This document shows, piece after piece, positions 35,474-40,704 of a stretch of DNA of 64,000 nt. The number at the start of each line of letters is the position of its first letter. Within the stretch, counting starts at the first letter, position 1. This DNA comes from Candidatus Micrarchaeota archaeon (GTDB taxonomy: Archaea > Micrarchaeota > Micrarchaeia > Micrarchaeales > CABMGC01). The position numbers and the translations under genes were made by a program. The notes beneath the pieces were generated by a model. That model was not told where the DNA came from and made no database searches. It saw only the letters and a list, made by a program, of their open reading frames with translations. The DNA is taken from contig JAWDMB010000003.1 of assembly GCA_046536795.1 (NCBI GenBank), forward strand, positions 35,645 through 99,644, given 5' to 3'.

Positions 35474-37981
35474 ATGGAGGTTTTACCCAAAAAATATGAA
35501 CTTAAAATATATCCAGATGCCAAAAGCAAGAAGTTCAGAGGAAATGTAAGTATTTATACACAAATAATTGGATCAGCAAATAAAATAGTACTCAATGCTA
35601 AAGAGCTTGAGATAAAAAGTGCAGAAGTTATTTCAAATGGATCAAGCCAAATTCCGAAGGTAAAGCTAGATAAAGAAAAGCAGGAGCTTATTCTTGAGCT
35701 GGATAAGCCGGTAAAGAAAAATGCAGTTATAAAGATTGAATATGTTGGCATACACAACGAAGAGCTGTATGGGTTTTATCTTTCAAAATATAAAATGAAT
35801 GGAAAAGAAGAAACACTGCTTACAACACAGTTTGAATCTAGCGATGCTAGAGCTGCATTTCCGTGCTTTGATAACCCTTCAATGAAGGCTGTATTTGAGC
35901 TGACGCTTGTGATAGACAAGGAGCTAGAAGCAATATCAAACATGCCAGTAAAGAGTGTAAAGGTTATTGGAGATAAAAAAGAGGTGCTATTTTACCCAAC
36001 ACCCAAGATGTCAACATACCTGCTTTATATGGGTGTTGGAAAATTTGAATACCTTCAAAGCAGTCTTGGCAAACTAAAAATAAGGGTTGCCACAACTCCC
36101 GGAAAGCTCAAATATGCAAAGATACCATTATTGTATGCAAAGCAGTTTGTTTCGTTTTATGAAAAATATTTTGGCATAAAGTACCCGCTCCCTAAGCTAG
36201 ATTTAATAGCAATACCAGATTTTAGTGCTGGAGCAATGGAGAACTGGGGTGCAATAACATTTAGAGAGATAGACCTTCTTATAGATCCAGATAATACCTC
36301 CGCTAGCAGCAGAATAAATGCTGCAACTACGATTGCACATGAACTTGCGCACCAATGGTTTGGAGATCTTGTAACTATGAAGTGGTGGGATGATCTTTGG
36401 CTTAATGAAAGCTTTGCTACATATATGAGCAGCAAGTGTGTAAATGCTGTTTATCCAGAATGGAAGCTAAATCTTAATTTTCTTATAGATGAAGTATCAA
36501 CTGGAATGAGCGCAGACCAGCTTGAATCTACTCACCCAATAAATGTAAGAGTTAAATCGCCAGAGGAGATAGAAAGTATATTTGACAGAATAAGCTATGA
36601 GAAAGGGGGCTCAATCTTAATGATGCTTGAAGATTACGCTGGACCAGAAACATTCAGGAAGGGCTTGCATAGATATTTAAAAGAGCATGCTTATGGCAAT
36701 GCCACAAAGTTTGACTTATGGAATGCAATACAGAAAGAGGCAAACATAGAAGGTAAAAAGCTAAAGGTAGGCGAAGTTGCAAAGGCTTGGATAGAAAAGG
36801 CTGGCTACCCAATAGTAAAGCTTAGCAGAGCAGAGAAAGGTTACTCAATGGCGCAAGAAAGGTTCACTTTGCTAGGTAAAACAAAGAATGGCTTGTGGCC
36901 CATACCAATAACATACTTAGCTTATACAAAAGGAAAAAAGGATATTGCAAAAATCCTTTTTGAAACAAAAAACAAGCTAATAAATACAAAGGCAGAATGG
37001 CTAAAGCTTAACTTCGGCCAGAAGGGATTCTATAGAGTAAAGTATTATGATGAAATGCTTACCCTTCTTGGCGAAGCATATAAATCAAAGATTATAGATG
37101 ACGTTGAGGGCATAGGCATAGAAAGCGACTTGTATAATTTGCTTATAGCACGCTACATAAAGCTTGATACCTATCTTGACTTCATAAGAAATTATATGCT
37201 TGATACTGAGTATCCGCTCAACATGCAGATTGCAAATCACCTCACTGCTCTTAATACATTTACATATGGCATGGGAGTAAACCAAAAAGTAAGGGATGTA
37301 GCGCTTGCATATTTCAGAAACGCAATTAAAAAAATAGGAATAAATCCAAAGAAAAATGAAGATGAACCTACAAAGATATTCAGGGCTAAGGTTATAACAA
37401 GCCTCGGCTTTCTTGAAGATAATGAAATAAAGGATTTTGCAAAAAGAAATTTTGAAAATGCATTAAATGACAAGGTGGATCCAAATATAAGAAATCCTAT
37501 ATTCTTTGTTTCAGCATGGAATGGTGATAATGAGGTGTTTGAAAAAATAAAAGAGGCTTATTTGAAAGAAACACTTCCAGAAAAGAAGATATATCTTCTT
37601 GTATCCCTTGGCCTCTTTAGAGACAAGCAAATCTGCCAAAATGCACTAGCTTTTACCTTATCTAAGGATGTTAGGCTTCAGGATTCATTTTACATACCAA
37701 ATGAGCTTTCTTCAAATCCTTCTGGGAAGGATTTATTACTGCCATGGCTTAAGGAGAATTGGCTTTTGCTTAAAGAAAAATTCAGTGCAGGAACACACAT
37801 GCTACCAAGGTATGTAGAGACTCTTTCAACACAAAGAGGCTATGACAAGCTTAAAGAAATAAAAGAATTCTTTACAAGCAAAAAGAACTACACGCCAGCA
37901 ATAAAGAAAGAACTTAGAGAAACGCTTGAACACATAGAGATAAATACACTCTTCGAAGAGTGGCTAGGAAATAATTCTTGA
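35474..37981 (+). CDS. M1 family aminopeptidase (tricorn-interacting factor F2/F3-like)
   Basis: GAMENWG, HELAHQW...NES, YEKG motifs; ERAP1-like C-terminal region. Confidence 0.95.
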   Translation: MEVLPKKYELKIYPDAKSKKFRGNVSIYTQIIGSANKIVLNAKELEIKSAEVISNGSSQIPKVKLDKEKQELILELDKPVKKNAVIKIEYVGIHNEELYGFYLSKYKMNGKEETLLTTQFESSDARAAFPCFDNPSMKAVFELTLVIDKELEAISNMPVKSVKVIGDKKEVLFYPTPKMSTYLLYMGVGKFEYLQSSLGKLKIRVATTPGKLKYAKIPLLYAKQFVSFYEKYFGIKYPLPKLDLIAIPDFSAGAMENWGAITFREIDLLIDPDNTSASSRINAATTIAHELAHQWFGDLVTMKWWDDLWLNESFATYMSSKCVNAVYPEWKLNLNFLIDEVSTGMSADQLESTHPINVRVKSPEEIESIFDRISYEKGGSILMMLEDYAGPETFRKGLHRYLKEHAYGNATKFDLWNAIQKEANIEGKKLKVGEVAKAWIEKAGYPIVKLSRAEKGYSMAQERFTLLGKTKNGLWPIPITYLAYTKGKKDIAKILFETKNKLINTKAEWLKLNFGQKGFYRVKYYDEMLTLLGEAYKSKIIDDVEGIGIESDLYNLLIARYIKLDTYLDFIRNYMLDTEYPLNMQIANHLTALNTFTYGMGVNQKVRDVALAYFRNAIKKIGINPKKNEDEPTKIFRAKVITSLGFLEDNEIKDFAKRNFENALNDKVDPNIRNPIFFVSAWNGDNEVFEKIKEAYLKETLPEKKIYLLVSLGLFRDKQICQNALAFTLSKDVRLQDSFYIPNELSSNPSGKDLLLPWLKENWLLLKEKFSAGTHMLPRYVETLSTQRGYDKLKEIKEFFTSKKNYTPAIKKELRETLEHIEINTLFEEWLGNNS

Positions 37982-38377
37982 TATTCTAGCGAGCCTGTGC
38001 CCCTTTGCCTTAAGCTCTATCTCATAAAACATGCCAAAAGAGAGCCTGCACACATTAAACTTTCTATCCTCAAGCCTCTTTGAGAGCTCGTTAAGCATTT
38101 CTATTGCATCTTCTGGCTTAGCTAAATCCGCAAACAAATGGGCAAATGGATTTAATATGAGTGTATTAACCTTTAGTTGTGAAGCTATTGCTTGTATTTC
38201 ATTTACAGCTTTGTCTACTATATCTACCTTTTTCTCAACGTCGCTTTTCTCAAAACTTATAAAGAGAAGCAAGGCTTCGCCACATTCTACTCGCTTAGCC
38301 TCTTCAACAAGGCTTGAACGCCCATGCTCTGTTGGAAATGCCTTAAAGTAGTCAACATGCCAAGCCATGAACCTCAT
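37964..38377 (-). CDS. Free-standing archaeal threonyl-tRNA synthetase editing domain (DTD-like fold)
   Basis: MRFMAWHVDY, FISFEKSD, NPFAHL..DLA.P, FG...E..LKAKGHRLARISR match the archaeal ThrRS N-terminal editing domain; only 137 aa. Confidence 0.85.
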   Translation of the reverse strand: MRFMAWHVDYFKAFPTEHGRSSLVEEAKRVECGEALLLFISFEKSDVEKKVDIVDKAVNEIQAIASQLKVNTLILNPFAHLFADLAKPEDAIEMLNELSKRLEDRKFNVCRLSFGMFYEIELKAKGHRLARISRIIS

Positions 38378-39273
38378 AACACAACACCTTTGGCAAAGAG
38401 CCTTGGCTGCTTCTGTCTTATAAGGAAAAATTCATCTCCCTTCTCAAACGGTAAAGGCTTATCTAGTTTTAGCTCAGCGGTGTTGCCTTCTATCTTTTCA
38501 ACAAAGCAAGAAGTAAATGAGAAATTAATGGCAAGCCCATAGCTACTGCCTTCTTTGAGCTCACCTTCTACTATGCTAGATACCTTTAACTTCGCTGAGA
38601 TTCTATCTTTTGGGGTTATTGCGTTGCTTGCAAATATTTCACCTTTCTCTATCTCGTCTGCTTCTATCCCTTTTATCGCCAATCCGACTCTTGTATAAAG
38701 TGGTGCGAGATCAATATCTCTATCCTGGCTTTGTATTGACCTGACGAAAGCCTGCTTGCCACTTGATGCATAAAGGGTATCGTGCACAGCCACACTGCCT
38801 TTGCTGACTATACCTAGCACCACGGTACCAACACCCCTTACAACAAATGCCCTGTCTATATCAACACGCTTTTCTTTGCTATCTACGAGCTCTTGCTTTG
38901 GCTTAAATTCAACAATCTTGTCTAGAAGTTCTTCCTTAGCATATATCTCATAAGCAGCTATTCCAGCACTCTTTGCAAGGTTGCCAATCTCGTTATCATT
39001 TGTAAATATAACGCGCTTCTCTAGAAGGCCTGCGGCAACAAGCACTTCACCAAAATACCTATCTATGCTAGCTGTACTTATAACTATTTGGCTCGACATA
39101 AGCATAGATTGGGCAAGCCCGTAGGGTTTATCATCTATGCTTGAAGGCGCAAGAGCAACCACAACATTCTCGCCATACAGCCTGTTGTAGAAGGTTATAC
39201 TGTTTTCAGAACCTTTCTTACCTATAAAACCTGCTAGCTCCTTGTCAAGAGGTATTGAAATTATGAAGTGCAT
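38374..39273 (-). CDS. EF-Tu/SelB-like protein with degenerate G-domain
   Basis: Domain II signature IDRAFVVRGVGTVVLG...VRSIQSQD...RVGLAIKG; no GxxxxGK[ST] motif; start moved to ATG 39273. Confidence 0.78.
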   Translation of the reverse strand: MHFIISIPLDKELAGFIGKKGSENSITFYNRLYGENVVVALAPSSIDDKPYGLAQSMLMSSQIVISTASIDRYFGEVLVAAGLLEKRVIFTNDNEIGNLAKSAGIAAYEIYAKEELLDKIVEFKPKQELVDSKEKRVDIDRAFVVRGVGTVVLGIVSKGSVAVHDTLYASSGKQAFVRSIQSQDRDIDLAPLYTRVGLAIKGIEADEIEKGEIFASNAITPKDRISAKLKVSSIVEGELKEGSSYGLAINFSFTSCFVEKIEGNTAELKLDKPLPFEKGDEFFLIRQKQPRLFAKGVVL

Positions 39274-39435
39274 AATAGTATTTTTTGGAGCAAACTTATA
39301 AAGATAGATTGGATGAAATACCTTCTTCTTGGTACATGCAGCAACAATGATATGAAAGCACTCAATGCCAAAACTCACGTCAATGACGTTCTGCTTCCTT
39401 TACATCTTTTTCTTTGATAGATTTTTCAGTAACAT

Positions 39436-40032
39436 CTATATTAATACCTCTGCATTGCCGAAGACTTGTGCATTGCCGTGTACTTGTGCATTACCGTAGA
39501 CCTGCGCAATGCCGTATACTTGTGCATTGTCAAATACACTTGCATTGCCGAAGACCTGCACATCGTCATAAATCCATGCCATGTTGTAGACCCTTGCATT
39601 GCCATAGACTTGTGCATTGCCAAAGACACTTGCAAAGCCGAAGACCTGCACATCATCGTAGACCTGTGCATTGTCGAAGACCCATGCATTGCCAAAGACC
39701 CTCGAAAAGCCAGAGACGTGTGCATTGCCGAAGGTCATTGCACTACCATATACCAATGCATTACTATCCACCCGTGCATTGCCGAAGATCATTGCACCTT
39801 CGGAGACCCATGCGTTTGAACTGTAGTCAAGATTGTCCTCTTTCTCTATAAAACCTCCCATGTCCCCTTTTCTTGCAATAACTTTACCAGATTCATCTAC
39901 GATATCTTTTGTTGCCCTAATTCTGTATAGTGTGTGCGTTTCGCCATTGATTTTAATTATTTTACTCTCGCCTGTGAATTCATACTTATCGTTGTATTCG
40001 CTTGTTTTAGGCATTTCTTTTTGTAAACCCAC
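39436..40032 (-). CDS. Hexapeptide-repeat (left-handed beta-helix-like) protein of a phage-associated type
   Basis: N-terminal YRIRATKD...KGDMGGFIEKEDNL followed by 21 NAxVxG-type hexapeptides. Confidence 0.85.
   Translation of the reverse strand: MGLQKEMPKTSEYNDKYEFTGESKIIKINGETHTLYRIRATKDIVDESGKVIARKGDMGGFIEKEDNLDYSSNAWVSEGAMIFGNARVDSNALVYGSAMTFGNAHVSGFSRVFGNAWVFDNAQVYDDVQVFGFASVFGNAQVYGNARVYNMAWIYDDVQVFGNASVFDNAQVYGIAQVYGNAQVHGNAQVFGNAEVLI
39439..39816 (-). repeat. 21 x 18-bp degenerate coding tandem repeat with a 90-bp higher-order duplication
   Basis: Units such as gcattgccgaagacttgt; gccgaagacctgcacatc occurs at both 39547 and 39637. Confidence 0.9.
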
Positions 40033-40182: not shown

Positions 40183-40704
40183 ATGGAAGAGGTAATATTG
40201 GTAGACGAACAGGATAGGCCGATAGGCACTATGGAGAAGCTGCAAGCGCATATGAATGGTGGCAGACTACACAGGGCAATTTCTATATTTGTATTCAACA
40301 AAAAAGGAGAGCTAATGCTGCAAAAGCGAGCTATGACAAAATATCACAGCAAAGGGAAATGGAGCAATACTGTGTGCACACACCCAAGGCCAAATGAGAA
40401 ACTTGAAGATGCTGCGCATAGAAGACTCAAGGAGGAGATGGGCTTTGACTGCCCACTTAAAGAAGAATTTAGCTTCATATATAAGGCGGATGTAGGCGAA
40501 GGGCTTACAGAATATGAATTTGACCACGTCTTCTTTGGAAGATATGATGGCGAGCCAGAAATAAATAAGGAAGAAGCGGATGACTGGAAATGGGCGAGCT
40601 TAGAAGAAATAAGCAAAGATATGAAAGAGAATCCAGAGAAGTACACACCATGGTTTAGGATAATGTTTGATAGAGTAGTAGAAAGAGCAAATAAGAAAAA
40701 ATAG
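40183..40704 (+). CDS. idi: Isopentenyl-diphosphate delta-isomerase, type 1 (Nudix fold)
   Basis: LHRAISIFVFN, LQKRA..K, WSNTVCTHP, RRLKEEMG, EYEFDHVF, W residue, YTPWF. Confidence 0.95.
   Translation: MEEVILVDEQDRPIGTMEKLQAHMNGGRLHRAISIFVFNKKGELMLQKRAMTKYHSKGKWSNTVCTHPRPNEKLEDAAHRRLKEEMGFDCPLKEEFSFIYKADVGEGLTEYEFDHVFFGRYDGEPEINKEEADDWKWASLEEISKDMKENPEKYTPWFRIMFDRVVERANKKK

What the first reader, a model, noticed from the sequence alone, without database searches (positions are those of the whole stretch)
37964..39273. Trans-editing domain translationally coupled to a GTPase-dead EF-Tu/SelB-like protein
A 137-aa free-standing archaeal ThrRS editing (DTD-fold) domain starts within the stop codon of a protein that retains the EF-Tu beta-barrels but has no P-loop (overlap at 38374-38377). 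Hypothesis: a two-component aminoacyl-tRNA quality-control module in which the EF-Tu-like barrels capture mischarged (Ser- or D-aminoacyl-) tRNA and present it to the deacylase. I know of no description of this pairing.
Basis: partly seen in the sequence, partly recalled or inferred. Interest (0 to 1): 0.62.

Follow-up and report, generated by a model that had tools for sequence, protein, structure and literature searches.

The report
SelB-like protein plus free-standing editing domain
A tiny symbiotic archaeon (Micrarchaeota) has fused two already-catalogued tRNA-handling genes, a nucleotide-blind SelB-like protein and a remodelled stand-alone ThrRS editing domain, into one small operon. The pairing arose once in one small clade, so it is a weak hint of joint function, not evidence of a conserved quality-control machine.

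Summary
On the minus strand, a 299-aa SelB/EF-Tu-like protein (38374-39273) ends in an ATGA overlap with a 137-aa full-length PF08915 editing domain (37964-38377). No P-loop is present.

Both families are already described. The first is a divergent aSelBL (Atkinson 2011); its closest structure is M. mazei MM1309/EF-Pyl (Foldseek TM 0.85). The second is a free-standing 'tRNA-Thr-ED' (Mukai 2017), 59% identical to the ARMAN-2 protein in that paper's dataset.

The genome keeps a full ThrRS with its own editing domain, and also DTD2, so the small protein fills no gap. Instead it carries an invariant remodelled pocket in 105 of 105 relatives: Y79N, S85F, K121Y, E134R.

Synteny does not support an obligate module:
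- aSelBL occurs in about 94% of the order; the editing domain in about 30%.
- They are adjacent in 5 of 60 species genomes, a single clade with one origin.
- Elsewhere the editing domain sits in PCNA-ED-DJ-1-Rpr2, S7-EF2-ED or NFACT-RNase Z-ED contexts, and relatives occur in bacteria-labelled assemblies.

Best reading: a lineage-specific operon fusion of two independent aminoacyl-tRNA-end binders. A protector/deacylase partnership remains possible (about 20%). Interest is modest.

The parts
38374..39273 (-). Divergent aSelBL: a 299-aa SelB/EF-Tu-like protein with three domains, no P-loop, no NKxD, and no SelB C-terminal domain
   Evidence: ORF. TIGR00475 8e-22. Best PDB hit 3WNB/MM1309 by sequence at 1.5e-17 and by fold at TMq 0.85. 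G motifs absent in 51 of 51 relatives. MM1309 aminoacyl/CCA-pocket residues conserved.
37964..38377 (-). Free-standing tRNA-Thr-ED paralogue (137 aa, DTD-like fold) with a remodelled pocket
   Evidence: PF08915 1.7e-29, full length. PDB ThrRS NTDs at 5e-23. 59% identical to ARMAN-2 EET89716.1 from Mukai 2017, but only 31% to the ED of its own ThrRS. Invariant Y79N, S85F, K121Y, E134R in 105 of 105 and Y120F in 104 of 105.
38374..38377 (-). ATGA stop/start overlap between aSelBL and the ED
   Evidence: Read directly from the sequence. The same overlap is seen in L024, L025 and L026. The sister lineage has a spacer of 8-24 nt, depending on the start codon chosen.
38385..38389 (-). SD-like AGGTG, 7 nt upstream of the ED start and inside the aSelBL coding region
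   Evidence: Sequence inspection. Function is inferred.
39296..39302 (-). TATA-like TTTATAA, 22 nt upstream of the aSelBL ATG. This is the candidate promoter of a leaderless or short-leader bicistronic transcript.
   Evidence: Sequence inspection.
35474..37981 (+). M1 aminopeptidase, convergent with the ED. The 3' ends overlap by 18 nt. It marks the downstream boundary of the unit.
   Evidence: ORF. The same NUDIX | aSelBL-ED | M1 block is conserved in L015, L017, L018 and L024-L027.
40183..40704 (+). NUDIX hydrolase, divergent from the unit. It marks the upstream boundary of the conserved block.
   Evidence: PF00293 1.5e-24. Synteny shown.

Best explanation
The locus is a lineage-specific bicistronic operon joining two separately established families that both act on the aminoacyl end of tRNA.

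Gene 1 is a divergent aSelBL. It is an EF-Tu/SelB-fold protein that has lost nucleotide binding but keeps the closed 'GTP-like' architecture and the aminoacyl/CCA pocket of M. mazei MM1309. It most likely binds and shields some aminoacyl-tRNA without a nucleotide (inferred).

Gene 2 is a free-standing tRNA-Thr-ED paralogue. It keeps the adenosine-binding scaffold (PFAH, KGH) but has fixed replacements of the residues that hold the amino group and the catalytic water in canonical ThrRS editing domains. It is therefore most likely a deacylase with a substrate other than Ser-tRNAThr (inferred).

The ED moved once, in the ancestor of one small Micrarchaeales clade, from another context to a site directly behind aSelBL. 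The commonest alternative context is PCNA-ED-DJ-1-Rpr2. The two proteins are co-expressed here, but in most genomes they work without being linked. The pairing reflects at most a loose shared theme of aminoacyl-tRNA handling, not an obligate two-component machine.
For: Identity of the parts.

Both families are in the literature, each including a Micrarchaeum (ARMAN-2) member: PMC3037878 and PMC5424206 Text S1 and dataset.

Loss of G motifs: 0 of 51 with a P-loop and 3 of 51 with NKxD. The Mg-binding Asp46 of MM1309 aligns to Leu41.

The pocket is retained. MM1309 G25, D178, F181, V183, V189, L191, S218, Q220 and R234 align to G21, D140, F143, V145, V151, L153, S179, Q181 and R195; all are invariant in the 51-sequence alignment except V151, which is nearly invariant.

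The ED is remodelled under strong purifying selection. The same F85/F120/R134 signature defines a wider set of short proteins, whereas ThrRS-length hits keep Y/S/Y/K/E.

No gap is being filled: the genome has its own ThrRS with an ED, DTD2 and CysRS.

Distribution: aSelBL gives strong hits in about 67 of 71 genomes of the order, and the ED is present in 21-23 of 71.

Adjacency occurs in 5 of 60 species genomes and forms one clade (91/85 support, one change on the tree).

Other ED contexts: PCNA/MscS-ED-DJ-1-Rpr2 in about 13 loci, S7-EF2-ED in 4, and NFACT_N-RNase Z-ED in 3.

aSelBL has variable neighbours elsewhere.

In this genome, PCNA, DJ-1 and Rpr2 remain clustered on contig C1 without the ED.
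Against: The stop/start overlap is kept across the genus, and tight spacing persists in a sister lineage whose aSelBL is only 52-54% identical. This could reflect selection for co-expression. However, the flanking NUDIX and M1 peptidase genes are conserved too.

The ED lands next to a translational GTPase-family gene twice independently (aSelBL and EF-2). This hints at more than chance.

Both proteins plausibly touch the same substrate class.

No expression, interaction or activity data could be obtained.
Confidence: 0.65

Rival explanations
1. Protector/deacylase pair, a modified form of the first reader's idea. The remodelled ED has broad or risky deacylase activity. aSelBL, made in fixed proportion through translational coupling, shields one correct aminoacyl-tRNA species from it, or from oxidation. 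Unshielded wrong species are hydrolysed. This would parallel the way EF-Tu protects Gly-tRNAGly from DTD.
For: ATGA overlap with an SD-like site, and tight linkage kept through the clade. The ED has a DTD-like fold. EF-Tu is known to prevent DTD misediting (PMC4880308). MM1309 protects Cys-tRNACys from hydrolysis (PMC4329189). The aSelBL pocket residues are conserved. Free-standing tRNA-Thr-EDs elsewhere associate with tRNACys/SepCysS genes (PMC5424206).
Against: aSelBL is present in about 70% of the order's genomes that lack the ED. The ED is unlinked to aSelBL in 55 of 60 species, and relatives occur in bacteria-labelled assemblies. Adjacency has a single origin. There is no interaction or activity evidence.
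Confidence: 0.2
2. One reading: the EF-Tu-like barrels capture mischarged (Ser- or D-aminoacyl-) tRNA and hand it to the deacylase as a two-component editing machine.
For: Operon linkage and overlap. Both parts are homologous to aminoacyl-tRNA binders.
Against: EF-Tu-fold proteins bury the ester that the deacylase must reach, and the one assayed aSelBL protects the bond (PMC4329189). ThrRS cis-editing and DTD2 already cover Ser-tRNAThr and D-aminoacyl-tRNA. The ED lacks K121 and E134, so neither activity is expected unchanged (PMC4491819). Synteny is confined to one clade.
Confidence: 0.05
3. The ED is simply a redundant trans-acting Ser-tRNAThr editor, a duplicated ThrRS domain with unchanged function. 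Its place behind aSelBL is incidental.
For: Full-length PF08915 match, with PFAH and KGH retained. In PabNTD, the Y120A and E134A mutants still edit (PMC4491819). The isolated domain can discriminate between tRNAs (PMC8762117).
Against: K121 is replaced by Tyr in 105 of 105, and K121M inactivates PabNTD. E134R, S85F and Y79N are equally invariant, and Y120F holds in 104 of 105. This pattern indicates a new constraint rather than drift. The protein is only 31% identical to its own ThrRS ED. Mukai et al. already suggested other substrates, including hydroxyacyl-tRNA.
Confidence: 0.1

Closest known systems
aSelBL family (Atkinson, Hauryliuk & Tenson 2011, PMC3037878); structural and biochemical reference M. 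mazei MM1309/'EF-Pyl' (PDB 3WNB/2ELF; Yanagisawa 2015, PMC4329189)
   Same: SelB-midfamily homology. Three EF-Tu-like domains without the SelB C-terminal extension. Closed architecture. Degraded G domain. Conserved aminoacyl/CCA pocket. The published family already includes a Micrarchaeum (ARMAN-2) member among the 'divergent' aSelBLs.
   Different: MM1309 still has a P-loop variant (Arg14), Asp46 and Asp103, and binds GTP with Kd 0.43 uM. The window protein and all 51 relatives examined lack G1 and nearly all lack G4, and domain 1 is about 50 residues shorter. The published genomic-context survey did not report an editing-domain neighbour.
Free-standing tRNA-Thr-ED proteins (Mukai et al. 2017, PMC5424206, Text S1/Fig. 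S4)
   Same: A single PF08915 domain without an anticodon-binding domain. The residue equivalent to Mj Glu135/Pab Glu134 is not conserved. The ARMAN-2 protein in their dataset is 59% identical to the window protein.
   Different: The groups they discuss in detail are linked to SepCysS/tRNACys and are the most ThrRS-like (they keep WYK...E). The Micrarchaeal group belongs to a separate subfamily (N/H/L79, F85, F120, non-Lys121, R134) and has no SepCysS context. The genome uses CysRS.
ThrRS-ed, the crenarchaeal trans-editing Ser-tRNAThr hydrolase (Korencic et al. 2004; NCBIfam PRK14938)
   Same: Homologous editing domain acting in trans.
   Different: ThrRS-ed carries the anticodon-binding domain and compensates for a ThrRS-cat that lacks editing. 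Here there is no anticodon-binding domain (69.8 bits against a cut-off of 362), and the genome's ThrRS has its own ED.
EF-Tu / DTD interplay (Routh et al. 2016, PMC4880308)
   Same: An EF-Tu-fold protein and a DTD-fold deacylase compete for the same aminoacyl-tRNA end. This is the closest precedent for how the pair might cooperate.
   Different: That interplay involves the general elongation factor and unlinked genes. Nothing here shows that aSelBL and the ED share a substrate.

Membership tests
aSelBL (SelB-like, archaeal) | Closest homology to SelB/aSelBL rather than EF-1alpha or aIF2gamma | tested here: met
   TIGR00475 selB is the best NCBIfam hit (8e-22, against EF-1alpha at 7e-12). The best PDB sequence hit is 3WNB, then archaeal SelB 4AC9. 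Foldseek ranks 1-5 are 3WNB, 4AC9, 5LZB and 4ACB.
aSelBL (SelB-like, archaeal) | Domains 1-3 only, without the SelB C-terminal SECIS-binding extension | tested here: met
   299 aa. The AF2 model shows three domains (pLDDT 95) and aligns over its whole length to the 361-residue 3WNB chain at TMq 0.85.
aSelBL (SelB-like, archaeal) | Disrupted G domain (G1/G4 degraded) | tested here: met
   0 of 51 have GxxxxG[KR][ST] and 3 of 51 have [NT]KxD in the first 140 residues.
aSelBL (SelB-like, archaeal) | Binds aminoacyl-tRNA (shown only for MM1309 with Cys-tRNACys) | not testable with these tools
   Only indirect evidence: the MM1309 pocket residues are conserved or invariant in the family.
tRNA-Thr-ED / PF08915 (archaeal ThrRS editing domain fold) | Full-length match above the Pfam gathering score, with the adenosine-binding motifs PFAH and KGH | tested here: met
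   103 bits against a cut-off of 30.2, positions 1-137 of 137. P77, A79, H80, G126 and H127 are invariant; F78 and K125 are nearly so.
tRNA-Thr-ED / PF08915 (archaeal ThrRS editing domain fold) | Free-standing: no catalytic or anticodon-binding domain | tested here: met
   A 137-aa ORF bounded by the aSelBL stop and its own stop. 105 homologues are 125-180 aa long.
Canonical Ser-tRNAThr editing site (PabNTD-type) | Pocket side chains Tyr120, Lys121 and Glu134 (with Tyr79 and Ser85) as in ThrRS and ThrRS-ed | tested here: not met
   Y79N, S85F, K121Y and E134R in 105 of 105, and Y120F in 104 of 105. ThrRS-length hits keep Y/S/Y/K/E. K121M inactivates PabNTD (PMC4491819).
ThrRS-ed (crenarchaeal trans-editor, PRK14938) | ED plus anticodon-binding domain, in a genome whose ThrRS lacks editing | tested here: not met
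   NF011500 scores 69.8 bits against a cut-off of 362 and covers the ED part only. The genome's own ThrRS is 634 aa with a full ED.
DTD (PF02580) / DTD2 (PF04414) | Match above the family cut-off | tested here: not met
   PF02580 scores 17.4 bits, below its cut-off of 25. A separate DTD2 gene lies at G000:C1:151511-152119. No bacterial-type DTD was found in 71 genomes of the order.
Conserved two-gene functional module (aSelBL + ED) | Linkage or co-occurrence conserved across independent lineages | tested here: not met
   Adjacent in 5 of 60 species genomes, one clade, one origin. Unlinked in 19 of 21 sampled genomes that carry both. The ED subfamily also occurs in Acidobacteriota- and Chloroflexota-labelled assemblies.

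The most novel reading that the evidence does not exclude
In this Micrarchaeales clade the two proteins form a stoichiometric protector/deacylase pair for one tRNA species. A nucleotide-independent aSelBL constitutively shields the correct aminoacyl-tRNA; Cys-tRNACys is the only precedent. The remodelled ED has lost the Glu that holds a free alpha-amino group and gained an Arg. It would clear a non-standard acyl-tRNA, such as an N-blocked, hydroxyacyl or acidic species, that escapes the shield. This would give the first function for both orphan families and a dedicated, GTP-free analogue of the EF-Tu/DTD partition.
Probability: 0.13. Interest if true: 0.7.

Novelty: new member of a known kind. 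Interest (0 to 1): 0.3.

Why it matters
Both families are orphans: widespread, clearly translation-related, and without an assigned function. If the pairing were functional, it would supply a testable hypothesis for both at once and a GTP-free counterpart of the EF-Tu/DTD partition.

As the evidence stands, the pairing is a single, clade-restricted operon fusion. The more durable result is about the ED. This free-standing subfamily has an invariant, charge-inverted aminoacyl pocket (Y79N, S85F, K121Y, E134R; Y120F in 104 of 105). It coexists with an intact ThrRS editing domain and with DTD2. That argues for a new substrate, not redundancy, and makes it a well-defined target for biochemistry.

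Tried and rejected
1. ED compensating for an editing-less ThrRS: rejected. The genome's ThrRS has a full ED with K121 and E134.
2. ED standing in for a missing D-aminoacyl-tRNA deacylase: rejected. DTD2 is present in this genome and in 62 of 71 genomes of the order, with no anticorrelation with the ED. Bacterial-type DTD is absent everywhere in the order.
3. Link to the SepRS/SepCysS route: no support. The genome has canonical CysRS. SepRS was not searched.
5. Discriminator-base survey with ARAGORN: only 27 tRNAs were found and no tRNAThr (introns are likely). The 3' ends were ambiguous, so this was not used.
6. Complex prediction: the structure tool folds single chains only, so no multimer test was possible.
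7. L036 has aSelBL about 3 kb upstream of the ED with two genes between them. One such case among about 55 small genomes is within chance expectation and was not counted as linkage.
8. Earlier notes of this scan: one note on another genome describes the same kind of free-standing ED. Nothing was found on the pairing.
Full report
OBSERVATION

The upstream one is 299 aa from the ATG at 39273, running 38374-39273. This start gives full-length agreement with about 190 homologues of 296-304 aa. The downstream one is 137 aa, running 37964-38377. The + strand reads TCAT at 38374-38377, so on the minus strand the ED's ATG overlaps the upstream TGA as ATGA.

An SD-like AGGTG sits 7 nt before that ATG, at 38385-38389. 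A TATA-like TTTATAA at 39296-39302 lies 22 nt before the aSelBL ATG. Together these suggest a leaderless or short-leader bicistronic transcript.

The unit is bounded by a convergent M1 aminopeptidase (35474-37981, with an 18-nt 3' overlap). Upstream lie a YdcK-like beta-solenoid gene and then a divergent NUDIX gene.

THE ORGANISM

The genome is 760 kb in 5 contigs, about 94% complete and about 38% G+C. Close homologues of both proteins carry Micrarchaeota/Micrarchaeia names.

GENE 1: A DIVERGENT aSelBL

- The best NCBIfam hit is selB (TIGR00475, 8e-22, residues 100-284). EF-Tu domain 2 is also detected.
- The best solved-structure hit by sequence is 3WNB, M. mazei MM1309/'EF-Pyl' (1.5e-17), followed by archaeal SelB.
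- An AlphaFold2 model built on 51 homologues is confident (pLDDT 95, pTM 0.91).
- Its best Foldseek match is again 3WNB (TMq 0.85 over the whole chain). Closed GTP-form EF-Tu and SelB structures fit at 0.73-0.81, and open GDP-form EF-Tu structures only at about 0.5.

So the protein keeps a reduced domain 1, not just the two barrels.

No member of the 51-sequence alignment has a P-loop, even in relaxed form, and 48 of 51 lack NKxD. The Mg-binding Asp46 of MM1309 aligns to Leu41.

In contrast, the residues that line the aminoacyl/CCA pocket of MM1309 are conserved. G25, D178, F181, V183, V189, L191, S218, Q220 and R234 of MM1309 (PMC4329189) align to G21, D140, F143, V145, V151, L153, S179, Q181 and R195. 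All of these are invariant in the family except V151, which is nearly invariant. T26 aligns to S22 and R249 to K210.

This matches the published description of 'divergent aSelBLs', which already includes the ARMAN-2 Micrarchaeum protein (PMC3037878). Function is unknown. The only biochemical data are that MM1309 binds GTP and protects Cys-tRNACys from hydrolysis (PMC4329189).

GENE 2: A FREE-STANDING tRNA-Thr-ED

The protein matches PF08915 over its whole length and solved ThrRS N-terminal domains at E 5e-23. Mukai et al. 2017 defined free-standing 'tRNA-Thr-ED' proteins and noted that the residue equivalent to Mj Glu135 is not conserved. They suggested that such proteins may hydrolyse aminoacyl- or hydroxyacyl-tRNAs (PMC5424206, Text S1). 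Their dataset contains the ARMAN-2 protein, which is 59% identical to the window protein (E 1e-60).

The window protein is only 31% identical to the ED of its own ThrRS. That ThrRS is a complete 634-aa enzyme whose ED retains Tyr79, Ser85, Lys121 and Glu134. The genome also has DTD2 and CysRS. The small ED therefore fills no obvious gap.

An alignment of 105 free-standing relatives shows strong purifying selection and a fixed, different pocket:
- Retained: PFAH (80-83) and KGH (128-130).
- Replaced: Y79N, S85F, K121Y and E134R in 105 of 105; Y120F in 104 of 105.
- New invariant residues: W6, H7, A13, P15 and G19-R20-S21.

In PabNTD, Pro80-His83, Tyr120, Lys121 and Glu134 are the side chains within 6 A of the scissile bond. 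Glu134 holds the substrate alpha-amino group, and K121M abolishes activity (PMC4491819).

A profile search of 1.8 billion representatives gave 840 hits. Among the 150 best, the F85/F120/non-Lys121/R134 signature occurs only in short proteins. ThrRS-length and ThrRS-ed-like hits keep Y/S/Y/K/E. Named members of the neighbouring clusters come from Chloroflexota/Anaerolineae. Three Acidobacteriota genomes also carry homologues. The inference is a deacylase-fold protein with a substrate other than Ser-tRNAThr.

IS THE PAIR A MODULE?

In 151 genomes sampled across the phylum:
- aSelBL gives strong hits in about 67 of 71 genomes of the window's order and weaker hits in many other families.
- The free-standing ED occurs in 21-23 genomes, all in that order.
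- The two are adjacent only in the window's genome and one congener. In 19 other genomes that carry both, they lie on different contigs or hundreds of kb apart; this includes four genomes in which both genes lie on one large contig.

A pattern scan of GTDB species representatives returned 59 ED loci. Their contexts are as follows:

| Context of the ED | Loci |
|---|---|
| aSelBL immediately upstream | 4 (5 with the window) |
| PCNA/(MscS)-ED-DJ-1/PfpI-Rpr2, with Tyw1 on the opposite strand | about 13 |
| S7-EF2-ED | 4 |
| ED followed by a GNAT (Acetyltransf_3) | 4 |
| NFACT_N-RNase Z-ED | 3 |
| Next to MetAP | 3 |
| Beside a DtxR-type repressor (MAGs labelled Thermoplasmata) | 5 |

In the ED tree, the aSelBL-linked genes form one clade (91/85 support, one change). 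That clade sits in an unresolved polytomy with PCNA/DJ-1-context and other lineages.

Metagenomic contigs extend the linked clade to a sister lineage. There aSelBL is only 52-54% identical, and the genes are separated by 8-24 nt depending on the start codon chosen. The flanking NUDIX and M1 peptidase genes are conserved as well, so persistence of the pair need not mean selection on the linkage itself.

In the window's genome, PCNA, DJ-1 and Rpr2 are still clustered on contig C1 without the ED. Elsewhere, aSelBL has unrelated neighbours. The published aSelBL context survey likewise found no conserved partner.

MECHANISM

Shown:
- Identity and architecture of both proteins.
- Loss of nucleotide-binding motifs.
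- Conservation of the aSelBL pocket.
- A fixed, remodelled ED pocket.
- Operon structure with overlapping stop and start.
- A single origin of the linkage.

Inferred:
- aSelBL binds and shields an aminoacyl-tRNA 3' end without GTP.
- The ED hydrolyses a non-canonical acyl-tRNA.
- The two are co-transcribed.

EF-Tu-fold proteins bury the ester, and MM1309 protects it. If the two proteins do cooperate, the better precedent is competition, as when EF-Tu protects Gly-tRNAGly from DTD (PMC4880308): a protector and a deacylase made in fixed proportion. I rate this at about 0.2, the incidental or loosely thematic operon fusion at about 0.65, and the original mechanism at about 0.05.

NOVELTY AND VERDICT

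Both genes are new members of families already described, and each family already includes a Micrarchaeum orthologue. I found no description of the adjacency. However, it is confined to one small clade, and the comparative evidence does not support an obligate module.

The most useful by-product is the sharply defined signature of this free-standing ED subfamily. Its recurrent translation- and tRNA-related neighbours (EF-2, aSelBL, RNase Z, NFACT, Rpr2, Tyw1) keep it firmly in tRNA biology while leaving its substrate open. Interest is 0.3.

Noticed in passing
window 39436-40032 (-): A YdcK-like beta-solenoid protein (198 aa; PF18836 1.3e-14) with a highly repetitive C-terminal half, which creates long overlapping ORFs in other frames. 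It lies between the NUDIX gene and aSelBL. The relatives' NUDIX | aSelBL-ED | M1 block lacks it, so it looks like a recent insertion.
   Followed up: partly
G000 contig C1:148587-153374 (outside the window): The site that holds the ED in other Micrarchaeales (PCNA-ED-DJ-1-Rpr2) is rearranged here: Rpr2 (+), DJ-1 (-), a 679-aa secreted-looking protein (-), DTD2 (-), a small membrane ORF, and PCNA (+). The other tRNA deacylase, DTD2, now sits beside PCNA. In several relatives with large contigs, DTD2 lies far from the ED locus.
   Followed up: partly
L064, L068, L069, L073; L039, L041, L045; L033, L038, L040, L066: Other recurrent neighbours of the free-standing ED: directly after ribosomal protein S7 and EF-2 (4 species); after an NFACT_N (Rqc2/NEMF-like) protein and RNase Z (3 species); and directly before an Acetyltransf_3 (RimJ/RimL-like) GNAT (4 species). 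All are translation- or tRNA-related.
   Followed up: partly
L078, L079, L081; clusters of P0231, P0236: Homologues with the same N/H79, F85, F120, R134 signature occur in Acidobacteriota ('Marinacidobacterales', 43-44% identity, on contigs of 0.37, 5.7 and 6.3 Mb) and in Chloroflexota/Anaerolineae MAGs. The subfamily therefore crosses the archaea-bacteria boundary.
   Followed up: partly
L052, L054, L061, L063, L067, L070, L075: ED genes 54-57% identical to the window's lie on contigs of up to 413 kb in MAGs labelled Thermoplasmata/Thermoplasmatales, the known host group of acidophilic Micrarchaeota, mostly beside a DtxR-type repressor. This could be host-symbiont gene transfer or mis-binning. 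G+C is 43-47%, with one locus at 68%.
   Followed up: no
Genome search table, (families f1/f2): Many ThrRS open frames in this order are only about 565-590 aa, against 620-650 in other Micrarchaeia families. Their ED matches start around query residue 21-27. The N-terminal strand of the cis-editing domain may be shortened in much of the order. This shows no obvious correlation with presence of the free-standing ED.
   Followed up: no
G104:C14:11515-11922: A second, much more divergent short ED-like ORF (159-aa frame, 32% identity to the window ED) in one genome of the order. It may represent another free-standing ED lineage.
   Followed up: no
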